From Squalus acanthias (Eukaryota), in contig CM059431.1 in the NCBI GenBank assembly GCA_030390025.1, positions 148,120,001 to 148,184,000 on the forward strand: DNA of 64,000 nucleotides. Direction: 5' to 3'. The notes under the pieces were generated by a model. The model did no database searches. It worked only from the letters and a program-made list of their open reading frames with translations, and had not been told where the DNA came from. Both the position numbers and the translations under genes were made by a program. This document shows, one piece after another, positions 2,025 through 64,000 of the stretch (position 1 is the first letter of the stretch; the number at the start of each line of letters is the position of its first letter).

Positions 2025-2640
2025 CCGTCACTATAACACTGATATACGGGACACCATCTCACTGTAACACTCAGATATAACCGACGCCCTCACAGTAACA
2101 CTATGATATAACCCACACCTCTCACTGTTACACTCTGATGTATTCCACTCCCCTGACTATAACACTCTGTTATAGCACACCCACCCTTCACTTTACCGGA
2201 CCGCTATTCCCGATAGCCCTCACTGTAGCACCCTGATATACCCCTTACAGTAGCATTCTGATATACCCCACACCCCTCACTGAAATACTCTGATACACCC
2301 CAAGCCCCTAAATGTAACACTCTAATATACCCCACACTACACAATGTAGCACTCTGATATACCCCACAACCCTCAATCTAACACTCTGATATTCCCCACA
2401 CCCCTCACTGTAACACTCTGATATACCCCACACCCCTCACTGAAATACTCTGATATAGCCCAAGCCACTCAATGTAACACTCTGATAGACCCCACACTAC
2501 TCAATGTAACACTCTGATATACCCCACACCCCTCACTCTAACACTCTGATACATGCCTCACACTACTGTGACTCCCCCCACCAGTCACTCTAATACTGAT
2601 ATTATCCACATCCCTCACTCTAACCCTCTGATACATGCCA
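2025..2640. repeat. Minisatellite, ~32-bp unit (CTCACTGTAACACTCTGATATACCCCACACCC)
   Basis: Direct tandem repeats visible in the sequence. Confidence 0.9.
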
Positions 2641-3147
2641 CACTCTGGACTGTTACTCCCCTCACCAATAACTGTAATAATGATATACGTCGCACCACTC
2701 ACTGTTGCCACTGCCACATTAATCCCATGGGCTTCAACTTTGGTAATATATGGTACTTTATCAAGCACCTTTTGTAAGGATAGGGAATTAGGCAAAGTGT
2801 GAGTAGTATCAATCATAAAACCATAGAATTGGTGAGACAAGTTGTGTTGACAATTTGTTTGGCGGACGAACACGACCCGCACTGATCACATGTCTTGCCT
2901 GGTTTCAATCAGTCTATTTCAAAATCAGTGATTTTAATCCCATTTTATTATTTATATTTATTTGTTCTCAGGATATGGGTGAAGCTGTCAAGACCGGAAT
3001 TACATTCCCATCCCTAGTTACCCATGAGCAAATGGTGAGCCTTCATCTTGAGCCGCTGCAGTCCGTGTGGTGAACGTGTTACTGTTACGGAAGGAATTGC
3101 AGGCTTTTGTCACAGTGCCGATGAAGGAACGGCGATATATTTGAAGG

Positions 3148-3556
3148 CTGCAGTAGCATAGTGGTTATGTTGCTGAACAAGTAAATAAGATGCCGGGACG
3201 AATAATCCTGAGTTGAAATCCCACCAGCTGGGGAATTTAAATACAATTCATCAATCAAATCTGGAAAAAAGATTGCGTCAGTAATGGTGACCATGAAACG
3301 ACCGGATTGTCGTAACAACACATCTGGTTCACTATTGTCCTTTACGGAAGGACATCTGCCGTCCTTATATATTGTGTCCAAAATGTGACTCCAGACCAAC
3401 AGCAATGTCGTTGTCTCTTCGCTGCCCTCTGAAATGGCCATACAAGCCACTCAGTTGTCTTAGGTGGCTCACCACCACCTTCTCCAGGACAATTATGGAT
3501 GGGCAATAAATGGTGGCCTTGCCAGCGACATCCACATCCCAAGAATGAATTTAAAA
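3148..3556 (+). mobile_element. tRNA-derived SINE sharing its 3' tail with the local 'family B' LINE
   Basis: A-box-like GTAGCATAGTGG and B-box-like GAGTTGAAATCCC. 3' end GGGCAATAAATGGTGGCCTTGCCAGCGAC matches the LINE tail. Related copies at ~40445 and ~57957. Confidence 0.7.
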
Positions 3557-3609
3557 AATGATTAATTAATGTTCATAATGAGTTACAAAGGGTTATAATG
3601 TATTATTTT

Positions 3610-4513
3610 ATTTTATTCGTTTATGGATATGGGTGTCGCTGGCAAGGCCAGCATTTGTTGCCCATCCCTAATTGCCCTTGAGAAGGTGGTGGTGAGTCAC
3701 CTTCTTAAACCGCTGGAGTCCCGTGTGGTGAAGGTACTCTTACAGTGCTGTTAGGTAGGGACTTCCAGGATTTTGACCAAGCGATGATGAAGGATCGGTG
3801 ATATAATTCTAAGTCAGGATGGTGTGTGACTTGGAGGGGTACTTGGTGGTGATGGTGTTACCATGCGCCTGCTGCCCTTGTCCTTCTAGGTGGAAGAGTT
3901 TGCGGGTGGGAGGCGCTGCCGAAGAAACCTTGGTGAGTTGCTACAGTGTATCCTGTAAATGGTACACTCTGCAGCCACGGTTCGCTGGTGAAGGAGGGAG
4001 TGAATGTTTAAGGTGGTAGGTGGGGTGCCAATCAAGCAGGCTGCTTTGTCCTGGATGGTGTTGCAGTATTCAAGTGGCTGGACCAGATACGTCTCTGGTC
4101 AATGGTGACCCGCAGAAAGTTGATGGTGGGGGTCTCGGCGATGGTAATGCCATTAAATGTCAAGGATCGTTGGTTAGAGTCTCGCTTGTTGGAGATAGGC
4201 ATTGCCTGGCAATTGTGCGGTGCAAATGTTAACTTCCACTAATCAGACCAAGCCTAAACGTCGTCCAGGTCCCGTTGCATGCGGGCATGGACTGCTTCAT
4301 TATCTGAGGAGATGTGAATGGCACTGAACAATGTCCTGTGATCAGTGAACATCCTCATTTCTGACCTTCTGTTGGAGGTAAGGTCATTGATGAAGCAGCT
4401 GAAGATGGTTTGGCCTAGGACACTGCACTGATGAACTCCTGCAGCGATGTCCTGGGGATGTGATGATTGACCTTCAACCACCACAACCATCTTGCTTTGT
4501 GCTAGGTATGACT
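3610..4513 (-). mobile_element. 5'-truncated non-LTR retrotransposon fragment (CR1/L2-superclade 'family B' RT plus 3' end)
   Basis: Degenerate RT (GVHQCSVLGQTIFSCFINDL...MFTD) and the family 3' tail. Confidence 0.8.
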
Positions 4514-4654
4514 AAGGATTATGATGTTTTATTAATGGACATAATGATTTATAAATGGTTATGATGTTTTATTAATGGTCATAATGATTTACAAGGTGTT
4601 ATGAAGTTTTGTTAATGGTCATATTGATTTATTATGGGTTATAATGTATTTTTT

Positions 4655-5708
4655 ATATTCGTTTATGGTCTGTGGGTATCGCTGGCAAGGCCAGCATTTG
4701 TTGCCCATCCGTAACTGCCCTTGAGAAGGTGGTGGTGAGCCGCCTTCTTGAACCGCTGAAGACCGTGTGGTGAAGGTATTCCCTCAGTGCTGTTAGGATG
4801 GGAGTTCCAAGATTTTGACCTTGCGACGATGAAGGATCGGTGATATAATTCTAAGTGAGGATGGTGTGTGACTTGGAGGGTAACTTGGAGGTGGTGGTGT
4901 ACCCATGCGCCTGCTGCCCTTGTCCTTCTAGGTGGAAAGGTTTTCAGGACTGGGAGGTGCTGCCGAAGAAGCTTTGGCGAGTTGCTGCAGTAGATGGCAA
5001 ACACTGCAGCCACGGTACGCCGGTGGTGGAGGGAGTGAATGTTTAAGGTTGTAGATGGGGTGCCAATCAAGCGAGCTGCTTTGTCCTGGATGGTGTCGAG
5101 CTTCTTGATTGTTGTTGGAGTTGCACTCATCAAGGCAAGTGGAGAGTATTCCCTTACATTCCTTACTTGTGCCTTATGGTTGGTAGAAAGGCTTTGGGGA
5201 GTCAGGAGGTGAGACACTCGCCGCAGAATATCTAGCTTCTGACATGCTCTTGTTGGCACAGTATTCATATGGCTGGTACAGTTACGTTTCTGATCAATTG
5301 TGAACCCCAGGATGTTGATGGTGGGGGATTCGCCGATGGTAATGCCATTGAATGTCAAGGAGCGGTGGTTAGAGTCTCGCTTGTTGGAGTTAGTCTATGC
5401 CTGACACTTCTGTGGGGCGAATGTTACCTGCCACTAATCAGCTCAAGACTGAACGTCGTCCAGATCTTGTTGCATGCGGGCATGGACTGCTTTATTATAT
5501 GAGGAGTTGTGAAGAGCACTGAACACTTTGCAGTATTCAGCGAGCATCCCCATTTCTGCCCTTTGTTGGAGGGAAGATCATTGATGAAGCAGCTGAAGAT
5601 GATTTAGTCTAGGACACTGCCCTGAGGAACTCCTACAGCGATGTCCTGGGGTTGTGATGATTGACCTTCAACCACCATAACCATCTTCCGTTGTGCTAGG
5701 TATGACTA
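4655..5708 (-). mobile_element. 5'-truncated non-LTR retrotransposon fragment (family B)
   Basis: ORF 4663-5358 encodes an RT C-terminal region (TFNGITIGESPTINILG...KAQVRNVREYSPL). Same 5' breakpoint as 3610-4513. Confidence 0.85.
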
Positions 5709-5715
5709 TGGTGTA

Positions 5716-8700
5716 TAAGAACATAAGAACATAAGAAATTGGAGCAGGAATAGGCCACTTGGCCCCTCGAGCCTGCTCCGACATTGAATAAGATCATGGC
5801 TGATCTCGGGCTCAAAGCCACTTCCCAGCCCGCTCCCCATAATCCTTCACTCCCTTATCTTGCAATGCAAAACTGTGTCTATCTCCACTTTAAATGTATT
5901 TAATGAGCCAGCGTCCAAGGCTCTCTGGGGCAGAGAATTGCACAGATTTACGAGCCTCTGAGAGAAGAAGTTCCTCCTCATCTCAGTTCTAAAAGGGCGA
6001 CCCTTTATTCTGAGACCGTGTCCCCGAATGCTAGATTCTCCCATGAGGGGAAAAATCCTCGCTGCATCTACCCTTTCGAGACAACTCACAATCTCAAATA
6101 TTTCGATAAGGTCACCTCTCATTCTTCTAAATTCCAAAGTGTATAGGCCCAGACCGCTCAATCTTTCCTCATAAGTCAAACCCCTCAGCTCTGGAATTAA
6201 CCTAGTGAATCGTTTCTTGAACTGCCTGCAATGCAACTATACCCCTACTTAAATAAGGAGACCAAAACTGTTCACATTTCTCAATGTGTGGTCTCACCAA
6301 TACCTTGTACAGTTGTAGCAGGACTTCCCTACTTTTATACTCCAACCCCCTTGAAATAAAGGACAACATTCCATTTGCCTTTTTGATTACTTGCTGTACC
6401 TGCATGCTAACTTTTTGTGTTTCATGCACAAGGACACACAGGTCCCGTTGAAATGTAGCATTTTGTAATCTCTCTCCATTTAAATAATAGTTTGCTTTTT
6501 ATTTTTCCTGGCCAAGTTGATAACCTCGCACTTTCCCACATTATACTCCATCTGCCAAATGTTTGCCCACTCACCAAGCCTCTTTATATCCCTTTGCAGA
6601 TTCCTTGAATCCTCTGCACAACTTGCTTTCCCACCCATCTTTGTATCATCTGCAAATTTGGCTACATTACACTCGATCACTTCATCCAAGTCATTAATGT
6701 AGATTGTAAATAGTTGGGGCCGCAGCACCCATCCTTGTGGCACCCCACTAGTTACCGTTTGCAAACCAGAAAATGACCCATTTATCCCCACTCCCTGCTT
6801 TCTGTTAGTTAGCCAATTCTCTATCCATGCTAATATATTACCCCCAACTCCGTGACCTCTCATCTTATGCAGAAAACTTTTATGTGACACCTTATCGAAT
6901 GCCTTCTGGAAATCCAAATACACCACATCCACTTTCTCATCCTTGTCCACCCTGCTTGTTACATCCTCAAAGAACTCCAGCAAATTTGTTAAACTTGATT
7001 TCCTTTTCCTAAAACCATGCTGACTCAGTTTGACTGCAGTATGTTTTTCTAAATGTCCTGCTACTGCTTCCTTAATGAAGGACTCCAGCATTTTCCCAAC
7101 GACAGATGTTAGGCTAACTGGTCTATAGTTTCCTGCTTTCTGTTTCCCTCCTACATTAAATAGGGATGCAGGCCATCTGGTCCAGGGGACTTGTCGTCTT
7201 TTATGCCCATTATTTTACTGAGTGTGATCGTGATTTTCTTCAGTTTCCCACTCCCTGTGGCCCCTTGATTATTCATTATTTGGATGTTGTTAGTGTCTTC
7301 TACAGTGAAGACAGATGCAAAATATTTGTTCAGAGTCTCAGCCATTTCCCCGTTCCCCATTATTAATTCCCCAGTCTCATCCTCTAAGGGACCATCGTTT
7401 ACTTGAGCTACCCTCTTCCTTTTTATATACCTGTGGAAGCTCCTACTATCTGTTTTAATGGTTCTTGCCAGCTTACTCTCATAATTCTTCTTCTCTCTCT
7501 TTCTTTTTTTTTTCGTCAACCTCTGCTGGTTTTTTAAAAATTCCCAATGCTCTGGTCTCCCACCAATCTTGGCAACATTGTATGCCTTCGTTTTCCATTT
7601 GATACCATCATTTACTTCCTTAGTTAGCCACGGATGGTGCTCCCTTCTCTTAAAATCTTTCTTTCTCCTTGGAATATATTTTTCTGGAGAGTTATGAAAT
7701 ATCTCCTTAAATGTCTGCCACTGCATTTCAACTTTCTTACCCTGTAATTTGTTTTTCCAGTCCACTTTAGCCAGTTCTGCCCTCATGCCATTATAATTGC
7801 CTTTGTTTAAGATCAGGACACTGTTTTGGGAGACAACTTTCTCACCCTCCAACTGAATTTGAAATTCAACCATACTATGATCACTCTTTCCTAGATGATC
7901 CTTTACTATGAGATCATTTATAAATTCTGTCTCATTACATAGTACCAGATCCAATATAGCTTGTTCCCTGTTTGGTTCCATTACATACTGTTCTAGGGAA
8001 ACATCCCGGATGCACTCTATGAACTCCTCCTCCAGGCTACCATGGCCAATTTGATGTGTCCAATCAATATGGAGATTAAAATCACCCATGATTATTACCG
8101 TACCACTTTTTTACAGGCCTCCATTATTTGTTGATTTATACTCTGTCCAACAGCATTGCTACTGTTCGGGGGCCTTCAGACTACGCCGCCCCAGAGACTT
8201 TTACCCCTTATTATTTTTTACCTCCACCCAAACCGATTCTACATCTTGATCTTCTGAGCCAATATCACTTCTCACCACTGCACTGATCCCATCTTTTACC
8301 AACAAAACCACCCCACCTCCCTTTCCTTTCATTCTATCCTTCCGAATTATCATATACCCTGGGAATATTCAGTTCCCAGCCCTGGTGGCCTTGCAACCAC
8401 GTCTGTGTAATAGCGATCAGATCATACCGATTTGTATCTATTTGTGCCGTCAACTCATTTATCTTGTTACGAATGCTGCGTGCATTCAGATATAAAGCTT
8501 TTATCTTTGTATTTTTACGATTTTTCCTTGTTTTGGTCTTTTTTTCTGTTACAATCTTATTTTTAATGATTCAGTCCCTTCCTGTCATATTCTGGTTATT
8601 ATTTCACCCGTCTCCAGCCTGCTCTATTGCTTTCTCATTTATCATTGACTTTTAATTTTCCTGCTTATCTGGATCCTCCCCCCCCCCCCCCACTTTTTAC

Positions 8701-9100
8701 TTTAAAGCCCTCTCTACAGCCTTAGTTATTCCATTTGCCAGGACTCTAGCCTCAGCATAATGCAAGTGCAGCCCGTCGAAACGGAATAGTTCCCTCTTAT
8801 CCGAGTACTGGTGCAAGCGCCCCACAAATCGAAACCCATTTCTCCCACACCAGTCTTTGAGCCACCCGTTCATTTATCTGTTCTTATTTACACGATGCAA
8901 ATTCGCTCGTGGCTCAGGTAGTAATCCAGATATATTACATTTGTGGTTATGCTTTTTAATTTAACCCCTCGCGAGACATACTCTCTCAGCAGAACCTCTT
9001 TCTTTGTCCAACCTATGTCATTGGTACCTCCGTGGACCATGATAACTGGATCTTCCCCCTCCCACTCCAAGTTTCTCTCCAGCCCAGAGGAGATGTCATA
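5716..9100 (-). mobile_element. Degenerate CR1 LINE (end of ORF1 esterase, ORF2 APE endonuclease plus RT, 3' microsatellite tail)
   Basis: GGTNDIG esterase motif; MGDFNL and LGKSDH endonuclease motifs; [16 protein letters not shown] and FADD RT motifs; (AAGAACAT)n tail at 5717. Multiple frameshifts. Confidence 0.95.
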
Positions 9101-9105
9101 AACTT

Positions 9106-9335
9106 GGCTATGATGTTTTATGAATGGTCATAATGATTTTTTAAGGGTTATGATGTTTTATTAATGGTCATAATGATTTATAAAGGATTGTAATGAAATA
9201 TTAGTAGTCATTATGAGTTAGAAAGGTTTATAATGTTTTCTTAATGGTCTTAATTATTTACAAAAGCTTATGATTTTTAGTTAATAGCCATAATGATTTA
9301 TAAAGGGTTATGTTGTTTTGTTAATGGTCATTAAT
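9106..9335. repeat. AT-rich ~38-bp tandem repeat (TTTTATTAATGGTCATAATGATTTATAAAGGGTTATGATG)
   Basis: Tandem copies here and at ~3555-3600, 4515-4650, 28975-29170, 58365-58410, 59320-59410 and 63970-64000. Confidence 0.8.
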
Positions 9336-9862: not shown

Positions 9863-10762
9863 TCATTTAATGAATTTTACAATTAGATTAAAGGGTTATT
9901 TCCCCACATTCTTCAACTGCTCTCTGAACTTAGTCTGGGTCACGGCATAAATCCCAGTGTTTGTGCAGCAACTCAGCAGCTGCAGCATCAATGCTATTTC
10001 CTGTACATAAAGAGGTAGAGATACAGAATGATACTCCGAATACCACAACCGGTTCCATAGAAACATCACCATAAACATTGCCCATAACAGGATGAAATTG
10101 CCGGAGATAACAAGCAGTAAAATTATGGATTTCCTGCGGCTCTCCATCTCTGGGTCTCTGGGACTCTCCCCACTGCTGGGACCCCGGAGTCTACTGCGGG
10201 CTCTGCTGGCCACTAAAATGTGTCTGACGGTGACAGCATTGAGCAGCAGAATCACCACAAATGGGACGCCCGGGGTGAGAAGATAATGAACGAGCTCGAT
10301 TGCTCCCCAGACCCGTGAAATCATCACAGTGTATGTTACCTCACAAAACCAGGGGGTAGTTCTGAAGCTGATACCGATCCGTCAACGAAAAATACCAGGC
10401 GATGTTCTTTAAACCGCTCAGCACAGTCACTGTTCCCAGAACCACAGCCGCCGTTTCCTCGGTGCAATATTTAGTTTTCAGCTTCTGGAGACAAATGGCC
10501 ACAAATCGATCAAAGGTGAAAGTGACGGTGAACCAGACAGAACAGTCTGTGGCTGCATAAATCAGGACGGCGTGGATATTACACACGCTTTTGAATCGTA
10601 GGAATTGAAACTGTTCCCTATAAACAATCGGAATCTGCCTCAATATCAGGTCGAGGATAATAACCAGTAGATCCGCCGCTGCCATGGCCACCAGGTAGCG
10701 AGTGACACATTTGGAGAGACCGCACCTTCCCCGAGACAGGATCACAATCGTCACTAAGTTCA
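9863..10762 (-). pseudogene. Exon 2 of GPR139/GPR142-like class A GPCR, copy 1 (frameshifted; probable pseudogene)
   Basis: Acceptor tttccctttctcacAG/TG AAC at 10763-10764. Sequence NLVTIVILSRGRCGLSKCVTRYLVAMAAADLL, TFDRFVAIC, SCCTNTGIY. One extra base in the G5 run at 10352-10356 splits ORFs 10341-10763 and 9896-10327. TAA at 9896-9898 replaces the paralogue's TAT. Ancestral stop at 9863-9865. Confidence 0.85.
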
Positions 10763-12079
10763 CTGTGAGAAAGGGAAATAAACAGGGAAATTAAAAATCA
10801 GGCTGCGAGCAAGAGCAGCAGTTTGATGGAAATCGGGGAGATATATGCGAATCAATAGCGACATTAAATGATATAATCTAATTCTATTAACTGTGGAGCT
10901 GAATACAGGGTTTATTGTAAGAATAATCGGGAATAAATTGTTGAATCAATAAATGAAAAGGTGATACAAGCAACAGGAATGTAGCCAATGTTTTATCAAT
11001 GAGAGATTAAATGGTAGACCTGCCTTGAACCCAGCAGACAGAAGCTCCGCCCGAGGTACCGGGGACTCAAAGGACCAGAACCTCTCAGGAAGCCTTCGGT
11101 TCCCGGGATCAGTCAGCATTTGGAGAGTTGCAATACGCTTCAATGCCCCTTGTGTTAGGGAGGAGGAAATCCCGCTTGGACTCATGCGCCTGGTCAGAAT
11201 ATCCTTTATATTTGAGAACTGAAAATGAAAAGAACAGCAAAATACAGAAACTGCAATCTTGGCGTTCAATAATTACAGGCAATTGTATTTAAAATGTACG
11301 GCTGTAATATGCAAATGCTAAGATAATTAATACAAGTGCACTGCAGTTATAAAGATAACCGGGCTGCAAGAAATCTTTTGAAGATTGAGTTTTCTACATT
11401 TATGCTGAAATACACAAATTCTAGCTCATTGAAAGGAAGATTTTCCAAATAACATAAATAGTGGGAACAGAATTAAAATAAATAGTTATCATGGATCAAG
11501 TAATATCCGACTAAATGCATTTATAAGCATCATAATCAGGCGAATTATCCAACAGGCAATATGATGCCGAATGTATTTGAAAAGTATCTGAACACAAATG
11601 GAATAGATTTATCCTTGTACGTTTTCACCTGTTGGTTTCCAACTTGTGCAGAAAATATTAGTCGAGAAAATATGAAAGGATTTTCTTACCCTCAGTACTT
11701 CAGTTACAATCAGCTGGGATTGTTTATCCTGCAGTACAGCAGGAGGCAATAGAGAATCACTCTGGGTCTCACTGAGAGATCCACTGAACTGTGACAGACG
11801 GGCATGGGATCCAATTGTAAATTCAAAGCAAAGATTGGAAATAAACGCATTCAAATATGTCTGAGTGAACGTTTTTGAGAATTTAAATTATCCTTGTGAT
11901 CCTTTTCTAACCATCAGAAGCAGTGCCACTAATGCAGAGCTGGAGATGGTGGGAAAGAAGACATTGACTGGAACTGAATGAGTCGCGGATATTTAAGACA
12001 TTTAAAGATGTGGGTGTGATCTGCCAGGATTTGTTCCTGTGACTCTGTGTCAGTAACCATAACGAGCATTCAGTGAAAA

Positions 12080-12359: not shown

Positions 12360-12820
12360 GTATCACCTTCAGAATCAATAGCCGAGAGCAGCGCGGATGG
12401 GATGGTGAATGACAAGGAGAGAAATACAGTAAAACATGATTTATAGAATGAATAGCTGGATACAGGCTCTTACCAGGGACACCAACAGCAGCGAAGCGCG
12501 GGGGAATCAGTGACAAGAACAGTAATACAGTGAAACATGATTTACAGAATTAATAGTTGGATACAGGGACTTACCAGGGACACCAACAGTAGCGAAGCGC
12601 GGGGGAATCAGTGAAAAGAACAGTAATACAGTGAAACATGATTTACAGAATTAATAGTTGGATATAGAGACTTACCAGGGACACCAAAGTAGTGAGGGAT
12701 GAGGGGCGGGATAATTGACAAGCCCTTTAATACAGTTAAACATGATTTACAGTATTAATAGTTGGATACAGAGACTTACAAGGTGAATCAATAGCAGCGA
12801 GAATGCGACTGACTTTTTAA
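12360..12820 (-). repeat. ~101-107-bp tandem repeat of the exon-1 end plus splice donor (copy 1 intron)
   Basis: Repeated ...GCTGTTGGTGTCCCTG|GTAAG with donor G at 12779, 12675, 12574 and 12473, plus a degenerate one at 12366. Confidence 0.85.
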
Positions 12821-12959
12821 ACAACTCTTGTTTTAACAAAGATGCAACAACTTGAAAGACAGAATACAATTAAGAACTGAATTTGCCACGGTAAACAGCA
12901 ATAATAATATTACAGTGTAACATGGTTTATAGAATTAATAACTGGACATAGATTCTTAC

Positions 12960-13071
12960 TAGGAACACCAACAGCAGCGAGGAGCGGATAGAAAATCTGT
13001 TGTATATCATTAACTATTGCCATCATCCGCTCCAGTTCAAGATAACTTTCGAAAGCGCTGCCGGAACCCAT
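12960..13071 (-). CDS. Exon 1 of GPR139-like GPCR copy 1 (MGSGSAFESYLELERMMAIVNDIQQIFYPLLAAVGVP)
   Basis: ATG at 13071. TM1 start YPLLAAVGVP. Phase-1 donor CCTA|GTAAGA at 12959 matches the phase-1 acceptor of exon 2. Homologous to exon 1 of copy 2. Confidence 0.8.
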
Positions 13072-13250: not shown

Positions 13251-13384
13251 TTGTCACCACAACACCTCACTGCAACACAATCTGAAGTAGCTGAGTTTTC
13301 ATCTTCTCTGGACAGAATTTTATACATTGCCAGAAATAGATTTCATTCCATTCGGGCTCAGTTTGAGGATCCAGTGAATAGCTG

Positions 13385-14105
13385 AGCCACACGGAGCAGG
13401 AAAGGCCCAGGCTCCATCCCCGGCCTGTGCCGAATGATTCAGATCTCACCTGGTGTGGTGCTGATCCCAACAAACACAAAGCATTGAAGGCCCAGGTTAC
13501 AACCTCGACCTATGCTGTGTTAGCCTGATCTCACACACGGTGTGATACTGAGCCCACACACACACACACACAAAGCATGGAAGGTCCAGGCTACAACGTC
13601 GGCCTGTGCTAAGTGAATCTAATCTGACACCCGGTGTGATACTGATCCCCAGACACATAGAGCAAGAAAGGCCCAGGCTCCATCCTCGGGCTGTGCTGAA
13701 TGAGCTGATCTCACACCCGGTGTGGTACTGAGCTCCTCACACACAGAGCAGGAAAGGCCCAGGCTCCATCCCCGGCCTGTGTTCAGTGACTCTAATCCCA
13801 CATCCGGTGTGGTCCTGAGCTCCACATACACAGACAGAGCAGGAAAGGAAAGGCTCCATCCCCGGACTGTGGTAACTGATACTAATCCCACACCCGGTGT
13901 GGTCCTGAGCCCCCCACACACAGACAGAGCAGGAAAGGAAAGGCTCCATCCCCGGTCAATGCTGAGTGAGCTGATCTCACACCCGGTGTGGTAACGAGCC
14001 CCACCCACAGAGCAGGAATTGCCCAGGCTCCATTCCCGGCCTGAGCTGTGTCAGCCTTATGTCATCCAGTGTGGTACTGCGCCCCTCACACACACACAGA
14101 GCAGG
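13385..14105. repeat. Minisatellite, ~80-bp unit (CACAGAGCAGGAAAGGCCCAGGCTCCATCCCCGGCCTGTGCTGAGTGAGCTGATCTCACACCCGGTGTGGTACTGAGC)
   Basis: About 8-9 diverged tandem units. The unit resembles a tRNA-SINE head region. Confidence 0.85.
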
Positions 14106-29803: not shown

Positions 29804-30702
29804 TCATCCTTTAATGAATTTTACAATCAGAGTAAATGGATATTTCCCCATATTCTTCAACTGCTCTCTGAACTTAGTCTGGGTCAGGGCATAAATCCCA
29901 GTGTTTGTGCAGCAACTCAGCAGCTGCAGCATCATTCCCATTTCCTGTACATAAAGAGGTATTTCTAGCTTAGACCCGAAAGACAACATCCGGTTCGTTA
30001 TATAACACACCATAAACACAGCCCATAACAGGATGAAATTGCCGGAGATAACAAGCAGTAAAATGATGGATTTCCTGCGGCTCTCCATCTCTGGGTCTCT
30101 GGGACTCTCCCCACTGCTGGGACCCCGGAGTCTCCTGCGGGCTCTGCTGGCCACTAAAATGTGTCTGACGGTGACAGCATTGAGCAGCAGAATCACAACA
30201 AATGGGAGCCCCGGCGTGAGAATATAATGAAGGAACTCGATTGCTCCCCAGAACTGTGACAACCAAACTTGCATTGTTACATCACAAAACCAAGGTTGGT
30301 TCCGAAGCTTATACCGATCTGTGAACATAAAATACCAGAAGATGTTCTTTGAACCGCTCAGCACAGTCACTGTGCCCAGAACCACAGCCGCCGTTTTCTC
30401 GGTGCAATATTTAGTTTTCAGCTTCTGGCAACAAATGGCCACAAATCGATCAAAGGTGAAAGTGACGGTGAACCAGACAGAACAGTCTGTGGCTGCATAA
30501 AGCAGGACTGCGTGGATATTACACACGGGGATGGATTTGACGAAATAAAACGGTCTCCAATAAACAATCGGAATCTGCCTCAATATCAGGTCGAGGATAA
30601 CGACCAGTAGATCCGCCGCTGCCATGGCCACCAGGTAGCGAGTGACACATTTGGAGAGACCGCACTTTACCCGAGACAGGATCACAAGCGTCACTAAGTT
30701 CA
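29804..30702 (-). CDS. Exon 2 of intact GPR139/GPR142-like class A GPCR, copy 2
   Basis: Acceptor tttcccttgctcacAG at 30703-30704. Open frame to TGA at 29804. TM1-TM7 with LVAMAAADLL, TFDRFVAIC, ECL2 Cys (PWFC) and SCCTNTGIY. Confidence 0.92.
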
Positions 30703-42559: not shown

Positions 42560-42794
42560 TAATACAGCTCCAATTGCTGGATATCGAGACTTACCAGGGA
42601 CACCAACAGCAGCAAAGAGGAGAGAGTAACTTACGAGAATAGTAATACAGTAAAACACGGTTTGCAGAGTTAATAGTTGGACACAGAGACTTACCAGGAA
42701 GAACAACCGCAGCAAGGAGGGGAGAGCAAAAGACATGAACAGTAATACAGTAAAAAATGATTTACAGAATTAACAGCTGGTTAGAGAGACTTAC
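42560..42794 (-). repeat. 100-bp tandem repeat of the exon-1 end plus splice donor (copy 2 intron)
   Basis: GTAAGTCTC donors at 42794 (true), 42694 and 42594, each preceded by exon-like LLAA(I/V)GVP-derived sequence. Confidence 0.85.
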
Positions 42795-43059
42795 AAGGAA
42801 CACCAATAGCAGCAAGGAGGGGATAGTAAAAGTATTCAGTAATCACAAGTGCGTAATATATTCGAAATCTTAATGGTAGTCTATCATAATTTGCAGAAAG
42901 ATAGTCAAACACCCAAATGAAACTCCGGCCCATTGTTTTAACATTCCAATCTAATGATCTCAGATTCTGATCCATTGTTGTAATATTCCAATCTACTGTG
43001 CTCAGATTCTGATCCATTGTTGTAACATTCCAATCTACTGTGCTCAGATTCTGATCCAT
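42795..43059 (-). CDS. Exon 1 of GPR139-like GPCR copy 2 (N-terminal 14-aa repeats plus start of TM1)
   Basis: First ATG at 43059: MDQNLSTVDWNVTT repeats...YFYYPLLAAIGVP. Phase-1 donor CCTT|GTAAGT joins the exon 2 acceptor, giving about 387 aa. Confidence 0.8.
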
Positions 43060-43169
43060 TGTTGTAACATTCCAATCTACTGTTCTCAGATTCCGACTCC
43101 CTCTCTGTAGAGCAGCGTACTGATCCCTGTTACGGCCGGAGGTGATGCTCTCACTAACACTATGAGATA

Positions 43170-56600: not shown

Positions 56601-57436
56601 TGGGCAGAACAGTGGCAAATGGAATTTAACACTGAAAACTGTGAGGTGATGCATTTTGGGAAGACTAACAAAGCAAGGGAATATACAATGAATGGTAGGA
56701 CCCTATGAAGGACAGAGGATCAGAGGGACCTTGGTGTGCATGTACATATGTCCCTGAAGGCAGCAGGACAGGTAGATACGATGGTTAAAAAGGCATATGT
56801 TACACATGCCTTCATTAGCCGAGGCATAGAATAAAGAGGAGGGAGGTTATGATGGAGCTGTACAAAACGCTAGCTAGGCCACAGCTGGAATACTGTGTGC
56901 AGTTCTGGTCGCCACACTATAGGAAGGATGTGATTACATTGGAGAGGGTGCAGAGGAGATTCACCAGGATGTTACCTGGGCTGGTGCCCTTCAGCTATGA
57001 AGAGAGACTGGACAGGCTGGGTTGTTTTCCTTAGAGCAGAGAAGGCTGATGGGGGGCCTGATTGAGGTGTACAAAATTATGAGAGGCATAGATAGGGTAG
57101 ATAGAAAGGAACTTTTCCCCTTAATAGAGGGGTCAATAACCAGGGTGCATAGTTTCAAGGTAAGGGGCAGGAGGTTCAGAGGGGATTTGAGGAAAAACTT
57201 TTTCACCCAGAAGGTGGTTGTAATCTGGAACTCACTGCCTGAAAGGGTGGTAGAGGCAGGAACCCTCACAACATTCAAGAAGCATTTAGATGAGCACTTG
57301 AAACGCCAAAGCACACAAGGCTACGGTCAAGTACTGGAAAATGGGATTAGAATAGACAGAGCTTTATGGCCGGTGCAGACACGATGGGCCGAAGGGCCTC
57401 TTTCTGTGCTGCATAACACTATGACTCTATGACTCT
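53665..57436 (+). mobile_element. CR1 ORF2 (EN to RT to tail), split by a solo LTR
   Basis: DFKFPNINW, FGDSDHN, QHGFV|RGRSCLTNL, FADDTK; (CTATGACT)n tail. Confidence 0.9.
54883..56155 (+). mobile_element. Solo LTR, 1273 bp (Gypsy- or ERV-type)
   Basis: Begins TGTA and ends TACA; 4-bp TSD TTTG on both sides, interrupting the CR1 QHGFV codons; AATAAA at ~55996. Confidence 0.85.
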
Positions 57437-57439
57437 GAT

Positions 57440-60400
57440 CCAAGCCACATGCTGGACTGTTACTACCCTCACCACTCACTGTAATACTGATATACCTCGC
57501 ACCACTCACTGTTGCCACTGCCACTTTAATCCCATGGGCTTCAACTTTGGTAATATATGGTACTTTATCAAGCAACTTTTGAAAGGATAAGGAAATTGGG
57601 TAAGCGTGAGTAGTATCAATCATAAAACCATAGAATTGGTGAGACAAGTTGTGTTGACAAATTGTTTGGCGGACGATGACGACCCGCTCTGATCACAGGT
57701 CTCGCCTGGTTTCAATCAGTGAATTTCAAAATCAGTGATTTTAATCCCATTTTATTATTTATATTTCTTTGTTCTCAGGATATGGGTGACGCTGTCAAGA
57801 CCGGAATTACTTGCCCATCCCTAGTTACCCATGAGCAATTGCTGGGCCTTCATCTTGAGCCGCTGCAGTCCGTGTGGTGAAGGTGTTACTGTTACCGAAG
57901 GAATTGCAGGCTTTTGACACAGTCCCGATGAAGGAACGGCGATATATTTGAAGGCTACAGTAGCATAGTGGTTATGTTGCTGGACAAGTAAATAAGATGC
58001 CTGGACGAATAATCCTGAGTTCAAATCCCACCAGCTGGGGAATTTAAATACAATTCATCAAACAAATCTGGAAAAAAGATTGAGTCAGTAGTGGTGACCA
58101 TGAAACTACCGGATTGTCGTAAAAACACATCTGGTTCATTATTGTCCTTTACGGAAGGACATCTGCCGTCCTTATATATTGTGTCCGAAATGTGACTCCA
58201 GACCCACAGCAATGTCGTTGACTCTTCGCTGCCCTCTGAAATTGCCAAGCAAGCCACTCAGTTGTATAAGGTGGCTCACCACCACCTTCTCCAGGACAAT
58301 TATGGATGGACAATAAATGGTGGCCTTGCCAGCGACATCCACATCCGAAGAATGAATAAAAAATGATTTATTAGTGGTCATAATGATTTACAAAGGGTTA
58401 TAATGTAATATTTTATTTTATTCGTTTATGGAATATGGGCGTCGCTGGCAAGGCCAGCGTTTGTTGCCCATCCCTAATTGCCCTTGACAAGGTGGTGGTG
58501 AGCCTTCTTCTTGATTCGCGTTCGTCCCTTGTGGTGAAGGTAATCCCAAAGTGCTGTTAGGGAGGGAGTTCCAGGATTTTGACAAAGCGATGATGAAGGA
58601 TCGGTGATATAATTCTAAGATAGGATGGTGTGTGACTTGGAGGGGAACTTGGAGGTGGTGGTGTTCCCATGCGCCTGCTGCACTTGTCCTTCTAGGTGGA
58701 AGAGGTTGCGGGTGGGAGGCGCTGCCGAAGAAGCCTTGGCGAGTTGCTGCAGTGCATCTTGTAGATGGTACACTCTGCAGCCACGGTACACCGGTGGTGG
58801 AGGGAGTGAATGTTTAAGGTGATAGTTGGGATGCCAATCATGTGGGCTGCGTTGTAGTGGATGGTGTCACAGTATTCAAGTGGCTGGACCAGTTACGTTC
58901 CTGGTTTCTGGTGACCCCAGGAAGTTGATAGTGTGGGATTCGGCGATGGTAATGCCATTGACTGTCAAGGGTCGGTGGTTAGATTCTCGCTTGTTGGAGA
59001 TAGTCATTGCCTGGCAATTGTGCGGCGCTAATGTTAACTACCACTTATCAGCCCAAGCCTGAACGTCCTCCAGATCTTGCTGCATGCGGGCATGGACTAC
59101 TTCATTATCTGAGGAGTCGTGAATGGCACTGAACACTGTGCAGTCTTCAGCGAACATCCCCATTTCTGACCTTATGTTGGAGGGAAGGTCATTGATGAAG
59201 CAGCTGAAGATAGTTGGGCCTAGGACGCTGCCCTGAGGAACTCCTACAGTGATGTCCTGGGGCTGTGATGATTGACCTTCAACCACCACAACCATCTTGC
59301 TTTTTGCTAGGTATGACTAAGGGTTATGAAGTTTTATTAATGTTCATCATGATTTATAAAGTGTGATGAAGTTTTGTTAATGATCACAGTGATTTATAAA
59401 GGGTTATATGTATATTTTTATTCGATTATGGGATGTGGGTGTCGCTTACAAGGCCAGCATTTGTTGCCCATACCGAACTGCCCTTGAGAAGGTGGTGGTG
59501 AGATACCTTCTTGAACCGATGCAGTCCTGTGTGGTGAAGGTACTCCCACAGTGCTGTTAGAATGGGAGTGCCAAGATTTTGACCCAGCGATGATGAAGGA
59601 TCGGTGATATAATTATAAGTCAGGATGGTGTGTGACTTGGAGGGGAACTTGGAGGTGGTGGTATTTCCAACCGCCTGCTTCCCTTGTTCTTCTAGGTGGA
59701 AAAGTTTGCAGGACTGGGAGGTGCTGCCGAAGAAGCTTTGCCGAGTTGCTCCAGTAGATGGTACACACAGCAGCCACGATACGCTGGTGGTTGAGGGAGT
59801 GTATGTTTAAGATGGTGGATGGGGTGCCAATCGAACGAGCTGCTTTGTCCTGGTTGGTGTCGACCTTCTTAAATGTTGTTGGAGTTGCACTCATCCAGGC
59901 AAGTGGAGAATATACCCTCACACTCCTTACTTGTGCCTTATGGATGGTAGAAAGCTTTGGGGATTCAGGAAGTGAGATACTCGCCGCAGAATATCTAGCT
60001 TCTGACCTGCTCTTGTTGCCACAGTATTCATGTGGCTCGTCCAGTTAAGTTTCTGGTCAATGGTGAGCCCCAGGCTGTTGATTGTGGGGGTATCGCCGAT
60101 GGTAATGCCATTGAATGTCAAGGAGCGGTGCTTAGACTCTCGCTTGTTGAAGTTAGGCTATGCCTGACACTTCTGTGGTGCGAATGTCACCTGCCACTTT
60201 TCAGCTCAAGACTGAACGTCGTCCAGATCTTATTGCATGCGGGCATGGACTGCTTTATTATCTGAGGAGTTGTGAAGAGCACTGAACACTTTGCAGTATT
60301 CAGCGAGCATCCGCATTTCTGACCTTATGTTGGAGGGAAGATCATTGATGAAGCAGCGGAAGATGGTTGTGCCTAGGACACTGCCCCGAGGAACTCCTAC

Positions 60401-63400
60401 AGCGATGACCTGGGGTTCTGATGATTGACCTTCAACCACGACAACCATCTTCCTTTGTGCTAGGTATGACGAAGGGTTATAAGAACATAAGAAAATAAGA
60501 AATAGGAGCAGGAATAGGCCACTTGGCCTCTCGAGTCTGTTCCGACATTCAATAAGATCATGGCTGATCGAGGGCTCAAAGCTACTTCCCAGCCCGCTCC
60601 CCACAACCCTTCACTTCCTTATCTTGCAAAAATGTGTCTATCTCCACTTTAAATGTGTTTAATGACCCAGCCTCCACAGCTCTCTGGGGCAGAGAATTCC
60701 ACAGATTTACGACCCTCTGAGAGAAGAAGTTTCTCCTCATCTCAGTTATAAAAGGGTGGCCCTTTATTCTGAGACTGTGCACCCGAATTCTAGACTTTCC
60801 CATGAGGGGAAACATTCTCTCTGCATCTAGCCAATCGAGCACCCTCAGAATCTCAAATGTTTCGATAAGATCACCTCTCATTCTTCTAAATTCCGATGAG
60901 TATTTGCCCAGCCTGCTCGTAAGTCAAACCACTCATCTCTGGAATTAACCTAGTGAAACGTCCCTGAACTGCCTCCAATGCAACTATATCCCTCCTTAAA
61001 AAAGGAGACCAAAACTGTACGCAGTTCTCAATGTGTGGTCTCACCAATACCATGTACAGTTGTAGCAGGACTTCATTGCTTTTATACTCCAACCCCCTTG
61101 AAATAAAGGCCAAAATTCAAATTGCCTTTTTGATTACTTGCTTTACCTGCATACTAACTTTTTGTGTTTCATGCACAAGATCCCCCAAGTCCTTCTGAAC
61201 TGTAGCATTTTATAATCTCTCTGCTTTTAAATAATAGTTAGCCTTTTTATTTTTCCTTCCAAAGTGGATAACCTCGCACTTTCCCACCTTAAACTCCATC
61301 TGCCAAATGTTTGCCCACTCACCTAGCCTGTCTATATATCTTTGCAGATTCTATGAGTCCTCTGCACAACTTGCTTTCCCACCCATCTTTGTATCATCTG
61401 CAAATTTGGCTGCATTACACTCGATCCCTTCATCCAAGTCATTAATGTAGATTGTAAATAGTTGGGACCCCAGCACCGATCCTTGTGGCACCCCACTAGT
61501 TACCGTTTGCCAACCAGAAAATTACCCATTTATCCCCACTCTCTGCTTTCTGTTTGTTAGCCAATTCTCTATCCATGCTAATATATTACCCCCAACTCCG
61601 TGACATCTTATCTTATGCAGTAATCTTTTATGTGACAACTTATCGAATGCCTTCTGGAAATCCAAATGCACCACATCCACTGGCTCATCCTTGTCCACCC
61701 TGCTTGTTACATCCTCAAAGAACTCCAGCAAATTTGTTAAACTTGATTTACTTTTCCTAAAACCATGCTGACTCTGTTTGACTGCAGTATGTTTTTCTAA
61801 TGCCCTGCTACTGCTTCCTTCATGAAGGACTCCAGCATTTTCCCAACGACAGATGTTAGGCTAACTGATCTATAGTTTCCTGCTTTCTGTCTCCCTCCTT
61901 TCTTAAATAGGGGTGTTACGTTAGCGGTTTTCCAATCCGCTGGGACCTCTCCAGAGTCCAAGGACTTTTGGTATATTCCAACCAATGCAGCCAGTATCTC
62001 TGCAGCCACTTGTTGTAAGACCCTGGTGCAGGCCATCTGGTCCAGGGGACTTGTCGTCTTTTAGTCCCATTATTTTACTGAGTGTGATAGTGATGTTCTT
62101 CAGTTTCCCACTCCCTGTGGCCCCTTGATTATCCATTATTGGGATGTTGTTGGTGTATTCTACAGTGAAGGCAGATGCAATATATTTGTTCAGAGTCTCT
62201 GCCATTTCACCGTTCCCCATTATTAATTCCCCAGTCTCATCCTCTAAGGGACCAACGTTTATTTTAGCTACCCTCTTCCTTTTTATATACCTGTAGAAGC
62301 TCTTACTAACCGGTTAAATGATTCTTGCCTGCTTACTCTCATAATTCATCTTCTCTCTCTTTATTATTTTTTAAGTCATCCTTTGCTGGTTTTTAAAAAT
62401 GTCCCAATCCTCTGGTCTCCTACCAATCTTGGCAACATTGTATGCCTTCATTTTGAATTTGATACCATCCTTTACTTCCTTAGTTAGCTACGGATGGTGC
62501 TCCCTTCTGTTAAAATCTTTCTTTCTCCCTGGAATATATTTTTCTTTAGAGTTATGAAATATCACCTTAAATGTCCGCCACTGCATTTCAACTTTCTTAC
62601 CCTGTAATTTGTTTTTCCAGTCCACTTTAGCCAGTTCTGCCCTCATGCCATTATAATTGACTTTGTTTAAGATCAGGACATTTGTTTGGGATACAACTTT
62701 CTCACCCTGCAACTGAATTTGAAATTCATCCATGCTGTGATCACTCTTTCCTAGATGATCCTTTACTATGAGATCATTTATAAATTCTCTCGCATTACAT
62801 AGTACCAGATCCAAGATAGCCTGCTCCCTGGTTGGTTCCATTACATACTGTTCTAGGAAAACATCCCGGATGCACTCTAATAACTCCTCCTCCAGGCTAC
62901 CATGGCCAATTTGATGTGTCCAATCAATATGGAGATTAAAATCACCCATGATTATTACCGTACCACTTTTTTACAGGCCTCCATTATTTGTTGATTTATA
63001 CTCTGTCCAACAGCATTGCTACTGTTCGGGGGCCTTCAGACTACGCCCACCCCAGAGACTTTTTCCCCTTGTTATGTTTTACATCCACCCAAACCGATTC
63101 TACATCTTGGTCTTCTGAGCCAATATCACTTCTCACCAATTCACTGATCCCATCTTTTACCAACAATACCACCCCACCTCCCTTTCCTTTCTTTCTATCC
63201 TTCCGAATTATCATATACCCTGGAATATTCAGTTCCAAGCCCTGGTGGTCCTGCAACCATGTCTGTGTAATGGCAATCAGATCATACCCATGTGTATCTA
63301 TTTGTGCCGTCAACTCATTTATCTTGTTACGAATGCTGCGTGCATTCAGATATAGAGCTTTTATCTTTGTCTTTTTACCATTTTTCCTTGTTTTGGCCTT

Positions 63401-64000
63401 TTTTTCTGTTACACTCTTATTCTTAATCATTCAGTCCCTTCCTGTCATATTCTGGTTATTATTTCACCCGTCTCCAGCCTGCTCTATTGCTTTCTCATTT
63501 CTCATTGACATTTAATTTTCCTGCTCAAATGTATCCTCCCCAGTCCGGCCCCCACTATGTATTTTAAAGTCCTCTCTACAGCCTTAGTTTTTCGATTTGC
63601 CAGGACACTAGCCCCAGCATAATGCCAGTGAAGCCCGTCCAAACGGAATAGCTCCCTCTTATCCCAGTACTGGTGCCAGCGCCCCACAAATCGAAACCCA
63701 TTTCTCCCACACCAGTCTTTGAGCCACTCGTTCATTTATCTGATCTTATTTACCCGATGCAAATTCGCTCGAGGCTCAGGTAGTAATCCAGAGATTATTA
63801 CCTTTGTGGTTCTTCTTTTTAATTTAACCCCTCGCTGCTCATACTATCTCAGCAGAACCTCTTTCTTTGTCCTACCTATGTCATTGGTACCTCCGTGGAC
63901 CATGACAACTGGATCTTCCCCCTCCCACTCCAAGTTTCTCTCCAGCCCAGAGGAGATGTCATAACCTTGCTTATGATGTTTTATGAATGGTCATAATGAT
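57440..64000 (+). other. Segmental duplicate of 2630-9140 (unique spacer, SINE, two family B LINE fragments, CR1, AT-rich repeat)
   Basis: Co-linear order with shared TE junctions and shared unique sequence. Confidence 0.92.
60481..63965 (-). mobile_element. Degenerate CR1 LINE (duplicate of 5716-9100)
   Basis: Same EN, RT and esterase motifs (LYLNARSIRNK, MGDFNL, FADD) and the same breakpoints. Confidence 0.92.

What the first reader, a model, noticed from the sequence alone, without database searches (positions are those of the whole stretch)
12360..12960. Array of duplicated exon-1 ends and splice donors in the intron of GPCR copy 1
Seen: after the true donor (12959) come 4-5 units of ~101-107 bp. 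Each has ~65 nt of intron-start sequence plus ~35 nt of the exon end (..AAVGVP) and, in four of them, an intact GTAAG donor (12779, 12675, 12574, 12473). Reading through from exon 1 hits TAA at 12910, so any distal donor gives a prematurely terminated mRNA. Inference: competing decoy donors could act as a splice-based rheostat or stochastic on/off choice for receptor expression. The same architecture occurs in copy 2, so it predates the duplication or recurs.
Basis: partly seen in the sequence, partly recalled or inferred. Interest (0 to 1): 0.75.

Follow-up and report, generated by a model that had tools for sequence, protein, structure and literature searches.

The report
Repeated splice donor in shark receptors
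The end of the first exon and its splice signal are copied head-to-tail five times into the intron of a shark receptor gene that looks broken, and twice in an intact neighbour; this is a known kind of repeat, likely inherited across the gene family and likely ignored by splicing, and no role as an expression switch is shown.

Summary
On the minus strand, the donor at 12959 of a two-exon shark 'probable GPR139' gene is followed by four intact GTAAG copies (12779, 12675, 12574, 12473) and a decayed fifth (GT at 12366). Copy 2 has two (42694, 42594). Every distal donor lies behind an in-frame stop.

This is an exon-intron-boundary minisatellite, as in human F7 intron 7 and the amphioxus 'mirages'. 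There the first donor is used alone or mainly. The scan found this kind before on other DNA.

The array is old and shared. Unit-type junctions occur in contigs of two differently labelled organisms, and one Heptranchias gene model starts inside a unit. The units are no better conserved between copies (61-85%) than ordinary intron (87%), and their exon parts show no coding pattern. Copy 1 carries a frameshift and a premature stop.

Two hints keep a function open. GTAAG is the best-kept 5-mer in the copies (naive P 0.01-0.03). Five of six intact extra donors pair better with U1 than the authentic ones. The one RNA test was inconclusive, so the rheostat idea is neither supported nor excluded.

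The parts
12960..13071 (-). Copy 1 exon 1 coding part (37 codons plus 1 base, ends YPLLAAVGVP, phase 1)
   Evidence: matches the N-terminal end of homologue models
12955..12959 (-). Authentic donor of copy 1 (CTA|GTAAGA), inferred from protein homology; weakest predicted U1 pairing of the eight intact donors (-4.5 kcal/mol)
12780..12959 (-). First, long unit (180 nt): intron start, about 100 nt non-repeat spacer, exon-end copy
12910..12912 (-). In-frame TAA reached on read-through of the authentic donor
12676..12779 (-). Unit 2 (104 nt), starts with extra donor 12779 (CTT|GTAAGT)
12575..12675 (-). Unit 3 (101 nt), starts with extra donor 12675 (CTG|GTAAGT)
12474..12574 (-). Unit 4 (101 nt), starts with extra donor 12574 (CTG|GTAAGT)
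12367..12473 (-). Unit 5 (107 nt), starts with extra donor 12473 (CTG|GTAAGA); ends in a decayed exon-end copy
12362..12366 (-). Decayed fifth extra donor (AAG|GTGAT): GT kept, GTAAG lost
9863..10762 (-). Copy 1 exon 2 (acceptor AG ends at 10763); one extra base in the C run at 10352-10356 and a premature TAA at 9898-9896
42795..43059 (-). Copy 2 exon 1 coding part (88 codons plus 1 base, with 42-nt N-terminal coding repeats)
42560..42794 (-). Copy 2 array: authentic donor 42794 (CTT|GTAAGT), extra donors 42694 and 42594 (CTG|GTAAGT), exact 100-nt spacing; last intron part truncated
29804..30702 (-). Copy 2 exon 2, open frame, 7tm_1 (PF00001, E 4.5e-18)

Best explanation
A stretch of about 100 bases spanning the exon 1/intron 1 boundary is tandemly repeated, likely from a duplication in an ancestor of this shark receptor subfamily, and the extra donors are likely tolerated passengers that splicing mostly skips. 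Shown: the units, their donors, the stops before them, and unit-type junctions in other contigs. Inferred: (1) a local duplication copied about 40 nt of exon end plus 60-140 nt of intron start; (2) whole-gene duplication spread it through the family together with the rest of the intron; (3) unit number then changed by slippage or unequal exchange (5 extra units in copy 1, 2 in copy 2; inner copy-1 units 93-95% alike in the intron part); (4) the spliceosome takes the most upstream donor, and any leak to a distal donor gives a stop-containing RNA that is lost without being a regulated switch.
For: Exon-like parts differ from their own true exon at 13 first, 6 second and 7 third codon positions, so there is no third-position excess and no sign of coding constraint. 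Unit identity between copies is 61-85% over 82 columns, against 87.3% over 964 nt of ordinary 3' intron and 90.3% for exon 2, so the array is not specially conserved. Inner units are homogenised (intron parts of 12779, 12675, 12574 are 93-95% alike) while the authentic boundary is 74-81% to them, the turnover pattern described for amphioxus mirages (PMC3087553 section 16). Unit number differs between copies and the last units are decayed or truncated. Shared ancestry: 8 of the 12 rows shown in table 5c (2 in run X1, 6 in run X8; 67 rows not shown) join an intron-start or spacer piece to an exon-end piece; an X1 contig covers 12342-12589 with 45 differences and no gaps; the rest of the intron is also covered by divergent contigs in both runs. 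Gene model P0040 (Heptranchias perlo, XP_067833419.1) begins with 9 of 9 residues identical to the translation of a unit's intron part, followed by an exon-end-like stretch. Copy 1 has a frameshift and a stop where 99 of 99 matched homologues (of 196 scanned) have a sense codon. In human F7 only the first of 5-9 identical donors is used, even when later ones are strengthened to a consensus value of 91 (PMC1557585, sections 9 and 12).
Against: GTAAG is unchanged in 6 of 6 intact extra units and GT in 7 of 7; expected differences 4.4-7.2 against 0-2 seen, naive P 0.01-0.03 (GT alone P 0.06-0.17) (column test p^5 0.004-0.06). Five of the six intact extra donors have G at -1 and pair better with U1 (-8.0 to -9.1 kcal/mol) than the authentic donors (-4.5, -5.4), whereas 129 of 149 homologue models have Val at the junction, which implies G at -1. 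The F7 paper found that perfect-consensus downstream sites took 70-90% of splicing, and its introduction says IFI6 (6-16) and CBS use the next two pseudo-sites, so leak here is plausible. F7 has 37-nt spacing after an internal exon; here spacing is 100-180 nt after what may be the first exon. Persistence across shark lineages is longer than that of a typical human VNTR (own knowledge).
Confidence: 0.8

Rival explanations
1. The extra donors are kept by selection as competing decoys: a share of transcripts would splice at a distal donor, take in a stop and be degraded, tuning or switching receptor output.
For: All distal donors lie 86-543 nt after an in-frame stop, beyond the 50-55 nt NMD rule (own knowledge). 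Five of six intact extra donors are predicted stronger than the authentic ones, and both authentic donors lack G at -1. GTAAG is the best-kept 5-mer. The architecture recurs in other contigs and in a named species.
Against: Copy 1 is broken downstream. The copy-1 stop comes after only 53 codons, and start-proximal stops often escape NMD (own knowledge). The conservation P values treat related units as independent and ignore that each unit was copied from a selected donor and can be refreshed by conversion among many paralogues. Published analogues use the first donor alone or mainly (PMC1557585, PMC3087553). A splice ratio acts on each transcript and offers no memory for an on/off choice per cell (inference).
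Confidence: 0.09
2. The extra donors are kept as U1 snRNP landing sites or spare donors and are not spliced: they would protect the long first intron from premature cleavage, or rescue splicing if the first donor mutates.
For: GTAAG retention and strong predicted U1 pairing. Copy 2's intron is about 12 kb. U1 protection of nascent RNA is established knowledge (recalled).
Against: Rescue cannot work here, because every distal donor follows a stop. Only two AATAAA/ATTAAA hexamers lie in the copy-1 intron. No direct test was possible.
Confidence: 0.06
3. Units of 3n+1 length supply an alternative short N-terminus: an ATG inside the array, in frame with a unit's exon end, would give a receptor with a different first segment after reinitiation or an internal start.
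For: P0040 is modelled this way. In copy 2 an ATG at 42736 is open in frame to donor 42594, giving 47 hydrophobic codons.
Against: Only 1 of 188 fetched proteins starts in a unit and it is an automatic model. None of the 4 intact copy-1 donors has an in-frame ATG, nor has donor 42694. There is no codon-position bias in the exon parts. No model has a doubled exon end (0 of 188). T-rich DNA gives open hydrophobic frames easily (inference).
Confidence: 0.05

Closest known systems
Human F7 intron 7 (IVS7) 37-bp VNTR, and the LMNB2 (100-bp), PDGF (81-bp), CBS intron 13 and IFI6 (6-16) boundary minisatellites (PMC1557585: abstract, synopsis, introduction, section 9 and discussion read; the four other genes known only from its introduction)
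   Same: The first repeat unit spans the exon-intron boundary, so the donor is reiterated downstream. Unit size matches LMNB2. Distal use would mostly give aberrant RNA.
   Different: Units here are old and diverged (70-94% within copy 1), not near-identical. They carry about 40 nt of exon rather than 4. Most extra donors are predicted stronger than the authentic one. The array is shared among paralogues and shark species, not confined to one locus. Donor use is untested here.
Amphioxus 'mirages' (Adh3, globins BflGb6 and BflGb9; PMC3087553: matching passages and section 16 read)
   Same: Minisatellite-like tandem duplication of an exon-intron boundary. Units of similar size (150-160 bp in the globins, 81-100% alike). 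Variable unit number, inner units homogenised, edges diverged, many but not all units keeping the splice signal.
   Different: Here in a vertebrate, and carried through a large gene-family expansion. Allelic or somatic length change was not testable.
Shark 'probable G-protein coupled receptor 139' expansion (automatic names in Heptranchias perlo, Pristiophorus japonicus, Heterodontus francisci and others)
   Same: Copy 2 exon 2 is 70-80% identical to most of the 120 models listed (range 56-80%); 2538 proteins at E<=0.001; same short first segment ending near GVP.
   Different: The name is automatic. Human GPR139 matches only weakly (E 3.9e-6, 29.5 bits, below muscarinic M4 at 31.1 bits), so ligand and role are unknown. 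Searches found no paper on this family in sharks.

Membership tests
Exon-intron boundary minisatellite / mirage | Head-to-tail tandem units | tested here: met
   period 101, 3.7 copies, 87% matches; period 100, 2.5 copies in copy 2
Exon-intron boundary minisatellite / mirage | Unit spans a real exon-intron boundary of the host gene | tested here: met
   units align to the exon-1 end and intron start; boundary placed by homology with protein models, not by RNA
Exon-intron boundary minisatellite / mirage | Many units keep the splice signal | tested here: met
   GTAAG in 6 of 7 extra units, GT in 7 of 7
Exon-intron boundary minisatellite / mirage | Repeat turnover: variable unit number, inner homogenisation | tested here: met
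   5 versus 2 extra units between paralogues; inner intron parts 93-95% alike; the unit tree was unresolved, 0 of 5 inner branches starred
Exon-intron boundary minisatellite / mirage | Length polymorphism between alleles or cells | not testable with these tools
   only one haplotype held; paralogues and alleles cannot be told apart
Exon-intron boundary minisatellite / mirage | Normal splicing mainly at the authentic site | tested here: inconclusive
   no spliced joint among the 15 joints shown (245 not shown); contigs only
Regulated unproductive splicing (alternative donor coupled to NMD) | Alternative junction leaves a stop more than 50-55 nt upstream | tested here: met
   86-543 nt
Regulated unproductive splicing (alternative donor coupled to NMD) | Alternative junction seen in RNA and regulated | tested here: inconclusive
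Regulated unproductive splicing (alternative donor coupled to NMD) | Region conserved above neighbouring intron | tested here: not met
   units 61-85% between copies versus 87.3% for the 3' intron; only the donor 5-mer shows a weak excess
Rhodopsin-class GPCR, shark 'GPR139-like' expansion (host gene) | 7tm_1 domain and high identity to the shark models | tested here: met
True GPR139 orthologue (host gene) | Clear best match to human GPR139 | tested here: inconclusive
   weak match, not the top score; no tree built

The most novel reading that the evidence does not exclude
A very large, undescribed shark receptor family carries an ancient array of strong spare splice donors behind a weakened first donor, kept by selection so that unit number and donor strength set how much working mRNA each paralogue makes: a family-wide, evolvable volume control built from a duplicated exon edge.
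Probability: 0.1. Interest if true: 0.7.

Novelty: new member of a known kind. Interest (0 to 1): 0.22.

Why it matters
As a neutral repeat it is one more example of a described structure. Its one unusual trait is age and spread: it seems to have been carried through a large receptor expansion in more than one shark species. That makes it a good natural experiment. With many paralogues, intact and broken, one genome-wide alignment could test whether reiterated donors are under selection, which single-locus cases such as F7 cannot do. If the decoy reading were true, it would be a new way to set expression levels within a receptor repertoire.

Tried and rejected
Genome survey of paralogues: no whole genome is held for this window.

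RNA test: no RNA holder listed (best share of words 0.33, five runs only guessed to be RNA). I laid 4 of the 21 runs (X1, X17, X19, X8; likeness 80). No spliced joint to the acceptor is among the 15 joints shown (245 not shown). X17 has no cover over 12491-12958, and X19 covers 12608-12724 and much of the 3' intron. These are contigs and may hold DNA, so this says nothing on donor use. The copy-1 C-run is not among the 12 indel rows shown (192 not shown), so an assembly error there is not excluded.

Searches for more DNA: a unit pattern in metagenome contigs gave 0 matches; exon 2 gave 40 pattern hits, none confirmed.

In-frame extension idea (exon read-through into a unit): a protein search with the read-through frame found 1 candidate and none at E<=10 (weak evidence); 0 of 188 proteins have a doubled exon end.

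Idea that the intron-start half of the unit is itself an older copy of exon codons -24 to -9: same register in 5 of 8 units by protein profile (p 0.004-0.24) and 6 of 7 by back-translated DNA profile (p 0.02-0.26; majority sequence p 0.24; 29 control 48-mers reached p 0.01); direct DNA comparison p 0.08-0.79. Not established.

Decayed unit near the 3' end of the intron: p 0.13-0.80 in 8 comparisons, rejected. A sixth intron part after 12366: 1 of 4 comparisons p 0.012, the others 0.23-0.67, not established.

Unit tree: unresolved.

Literature: PMC12294341 and PMC10078293 passages were read and not relevant. One search (decoy, splice donor, tandem repeat, nonsense-mediated decay, receptor choice) listed 4 papers, none on this by title and abstract start. 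No supplements were opened.

Full report
What is there. The window holds two minus-strand, two-exon genes of a rhodopsin-class receptor family (7tm_1, E 4.5e-18 for copy 2). A protein search with copy 2's exon 2 gave 2538 hits; the 120 listed are shark models automatically named 'probable G-protein coupled receptor 139'. The name is loose: human GPR139 matches at only 29.5 bits. Copy 1 has a coding exon 1 at 13071-12960, an intron from 12959 to 10763 and exon 2 from 10762. Copy 2 has exon 1 at 43059-42795 and exon 2 at 30702-29804. Exon limits come from homology with protein models, not from RNA.

Observation. The donor coordinates given are exact: GTAAG at 12959, 12779, 12675, 12574 and 12473. 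The repeat is real (period 101, 3.7 copies, 87% matches, score 511). A fifth, decayed unit ends 107 nt further on at AAG|GTGAT, GT at 12366 (exon-like part p 0.002-0.014 against shuffles). Copy 2 has extra donors at 42694 and 42594. Read-through of the authentic donor stops at 12912-12910 in copy 1 and 42783-42781 in copy 2, 86-543 nt before the distal donors.

Copy 1 looks broken. It has one extra base in a C run at 10352-10356, which changes the frame, and a TAA at 9898-9896 where 99 of 99 matched homologues (of 196 scanned) have a sense codon. The first could be an assembly error and the second removes only about 11 residues, but together they make a pseudogene the likelier reading. A device that tunes receptor output has little to act on in this copy; copy 2 is intact.

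Age and spread. Gene model P0040 from Heptranchias perlo (XP_067833419.1) starts with nine residues identical to the translation of a unit's intron part, followed by an exon-end-like stretch. I infer that this species has the unit too; its DNA was not seen. It is 1 of 188 fetched proteins. Laying public contigs at 80% likeness (4 of 21 listed runs) showed the whole intron, array included, covered by divergent contigs in runs X1 and X8, which bear different organism labels. Of the 12 rows shown in table 5c (67 not shown), 2 in X1 and 6 in X8 join an intron-start or spacer piece to an exon-end piece, which is the junction that a tandem unit makes. Two of the X8 rows include the long first spacer. 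One X1 contig covers 12342-12589 with 45 differences and no gaps. The tool warns that joints at low likeness often come from repeats; here I read them as paralogues. So the array is a shared trait of at least part of the family.

Signs of neutral turnover. Between the two copies the units are 61-85% identical over 82 columns (74-85% without the truncated unit at 42594), against 87.3% for 964 nt of ordinary 3' intron and 90.3% for exon 2. Differences of the exon-like parts from their own true exon fall on codon positions 1, 2 and 3 as 13, 6 and 7, so no reading frame is protected (units are not independent). Inner copy-1 units are 93-95% alike in the intron part and 74-81% alike to the authentic boundary. 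Unit number differs between copies and the last units are decayed or truncated. The unit tree was unresolved.

Results against the neutral reading. GTAAG is unchanged in all 6 intact extra units and GT in 7 of 7. Against flanking rates, 4.4-7.2 differences were expected and 0-2 seen (naive P 0.01-0.03); GT alone gives P 0.06-0.17. These values overstate the case, because each unit was copied from a donor under selection, units are related, and conversion among many paralogues could refresh the junction (inference, not tested). Second, both authentic donors lack G at -1, while five of six intact extra donors have it and pair better with U1 by prediction (-8.0 to -9.1 against -4.5 and -5.4 kcal/mol). 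Among homologue models 129 of 149 matched (of 188) have Val at the junction, which implies G at -1. Two genes are too few to call this a pattern.

Known analogues. Human F7 intron 7 carries a 37-bp minisatellite whose first unit spans the exon boundary. Only the most upstream donor is used, also when later sites are strengthened to a consensus value of 91; perfect sites took 70-90% (PMC1557585; abstract, synopsis, introduction, section 9 and discussion read). Its introduction lists LMNB2 (100-bp unit) and PDGF (81-bp) with only the authentic donor used, and IFI6 and CBS with two further sites used. Amphioxus 'mirages' are tandem duplications of exon-intron boundaries with variable unit number and inner homogenisation, reported not to disturb splicing (PMC3087553; passages and section 16 read). 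I found both papers by one search. The scan's own notes (unchecked) list the same kind in annelids, sea urchins, a camelid and the elephant shark. Searches found no paper on this receptor family in sharks, and search 44 none on decoy-donor arrays in receptor choice; the library lacks most subscription journals.

Mechanism. Most likely (0.8) a local duplication across the exon 1 donor arose in an ancestral gene, spread with whole-gene duplication, and has since gained and lost units; the first donor would be used and any leak would be lost as stop-containing RNA. The anatomy and spread are shown; origin, turnover and donor choice are inferred. Rivals: selected decoys coupled to NMD (0.09), unspliced U1 landing sites (0.06), alternative N-termini from an ATG inside the array (0.05; in copy 2 an ATG at 42736 is open to donor 42594, but none of the four intact copy-1 donors has one).

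Verdict. Real feature, new member of a known kind. The rheostat reading is unsupported but not excluded, because donor use in RNA could not be measured and no genome was available for a paralogue survey. Interest 0.22.

Noticed in passing
window 9863-10762 (-): Copy 1 exon 2 has an extra base in the C run at 10352-10356 and a TAA at 9898-9896; likely a pseudogene, or partly an assembly error.
   Followed up: partly
window 12959 and 42794 (-): Both authentic donors lack G at -1 (giving Met or Leu at the junction), while 129 of 149 homologue models have Val; most extra donors are predicted stronger.
   Followed up: partly
window 42595-42736 (-): An ATG inside the copy-2 array is open in frame to the last extra donor, giving 47 hydrophobic codons; may be chance in T-rich DNA.
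   Followed up: partly
first 48 nt after each donor, e.g. window 12912-12959 and 42647-42694 (-): Translation weakly resembles exon-1 codons -24 to -9 in the same register in most units; could mark an older duplication, not established.
   Followed up: yes
window 42930-43093 (-): Copy 2 exon 1 holds a 42-nt coding repeat (3.9 copies) giving repeated 14-residue segments with an N-x-T motif; copy number varies widely among homologues.
   Followed up: no
window 13388-14094: A 90-bp tandem repeat (8 copies) lies just upstream of copy 1's TATA-like site at 13324; not seen upstream of copy 2.
   Followed up: no
   Followed up: no
window 2617-9137 and 57424-64000: Direct segmental duplication at 90-93% identity; the second copy runs off the window end where, by analogy, a third receptor gene could follow.
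   Followed up: no
The host family is a very large shark expansion named GPR139 only by automatic annotation; my three searches found no paper on it.
   Followed up: partly
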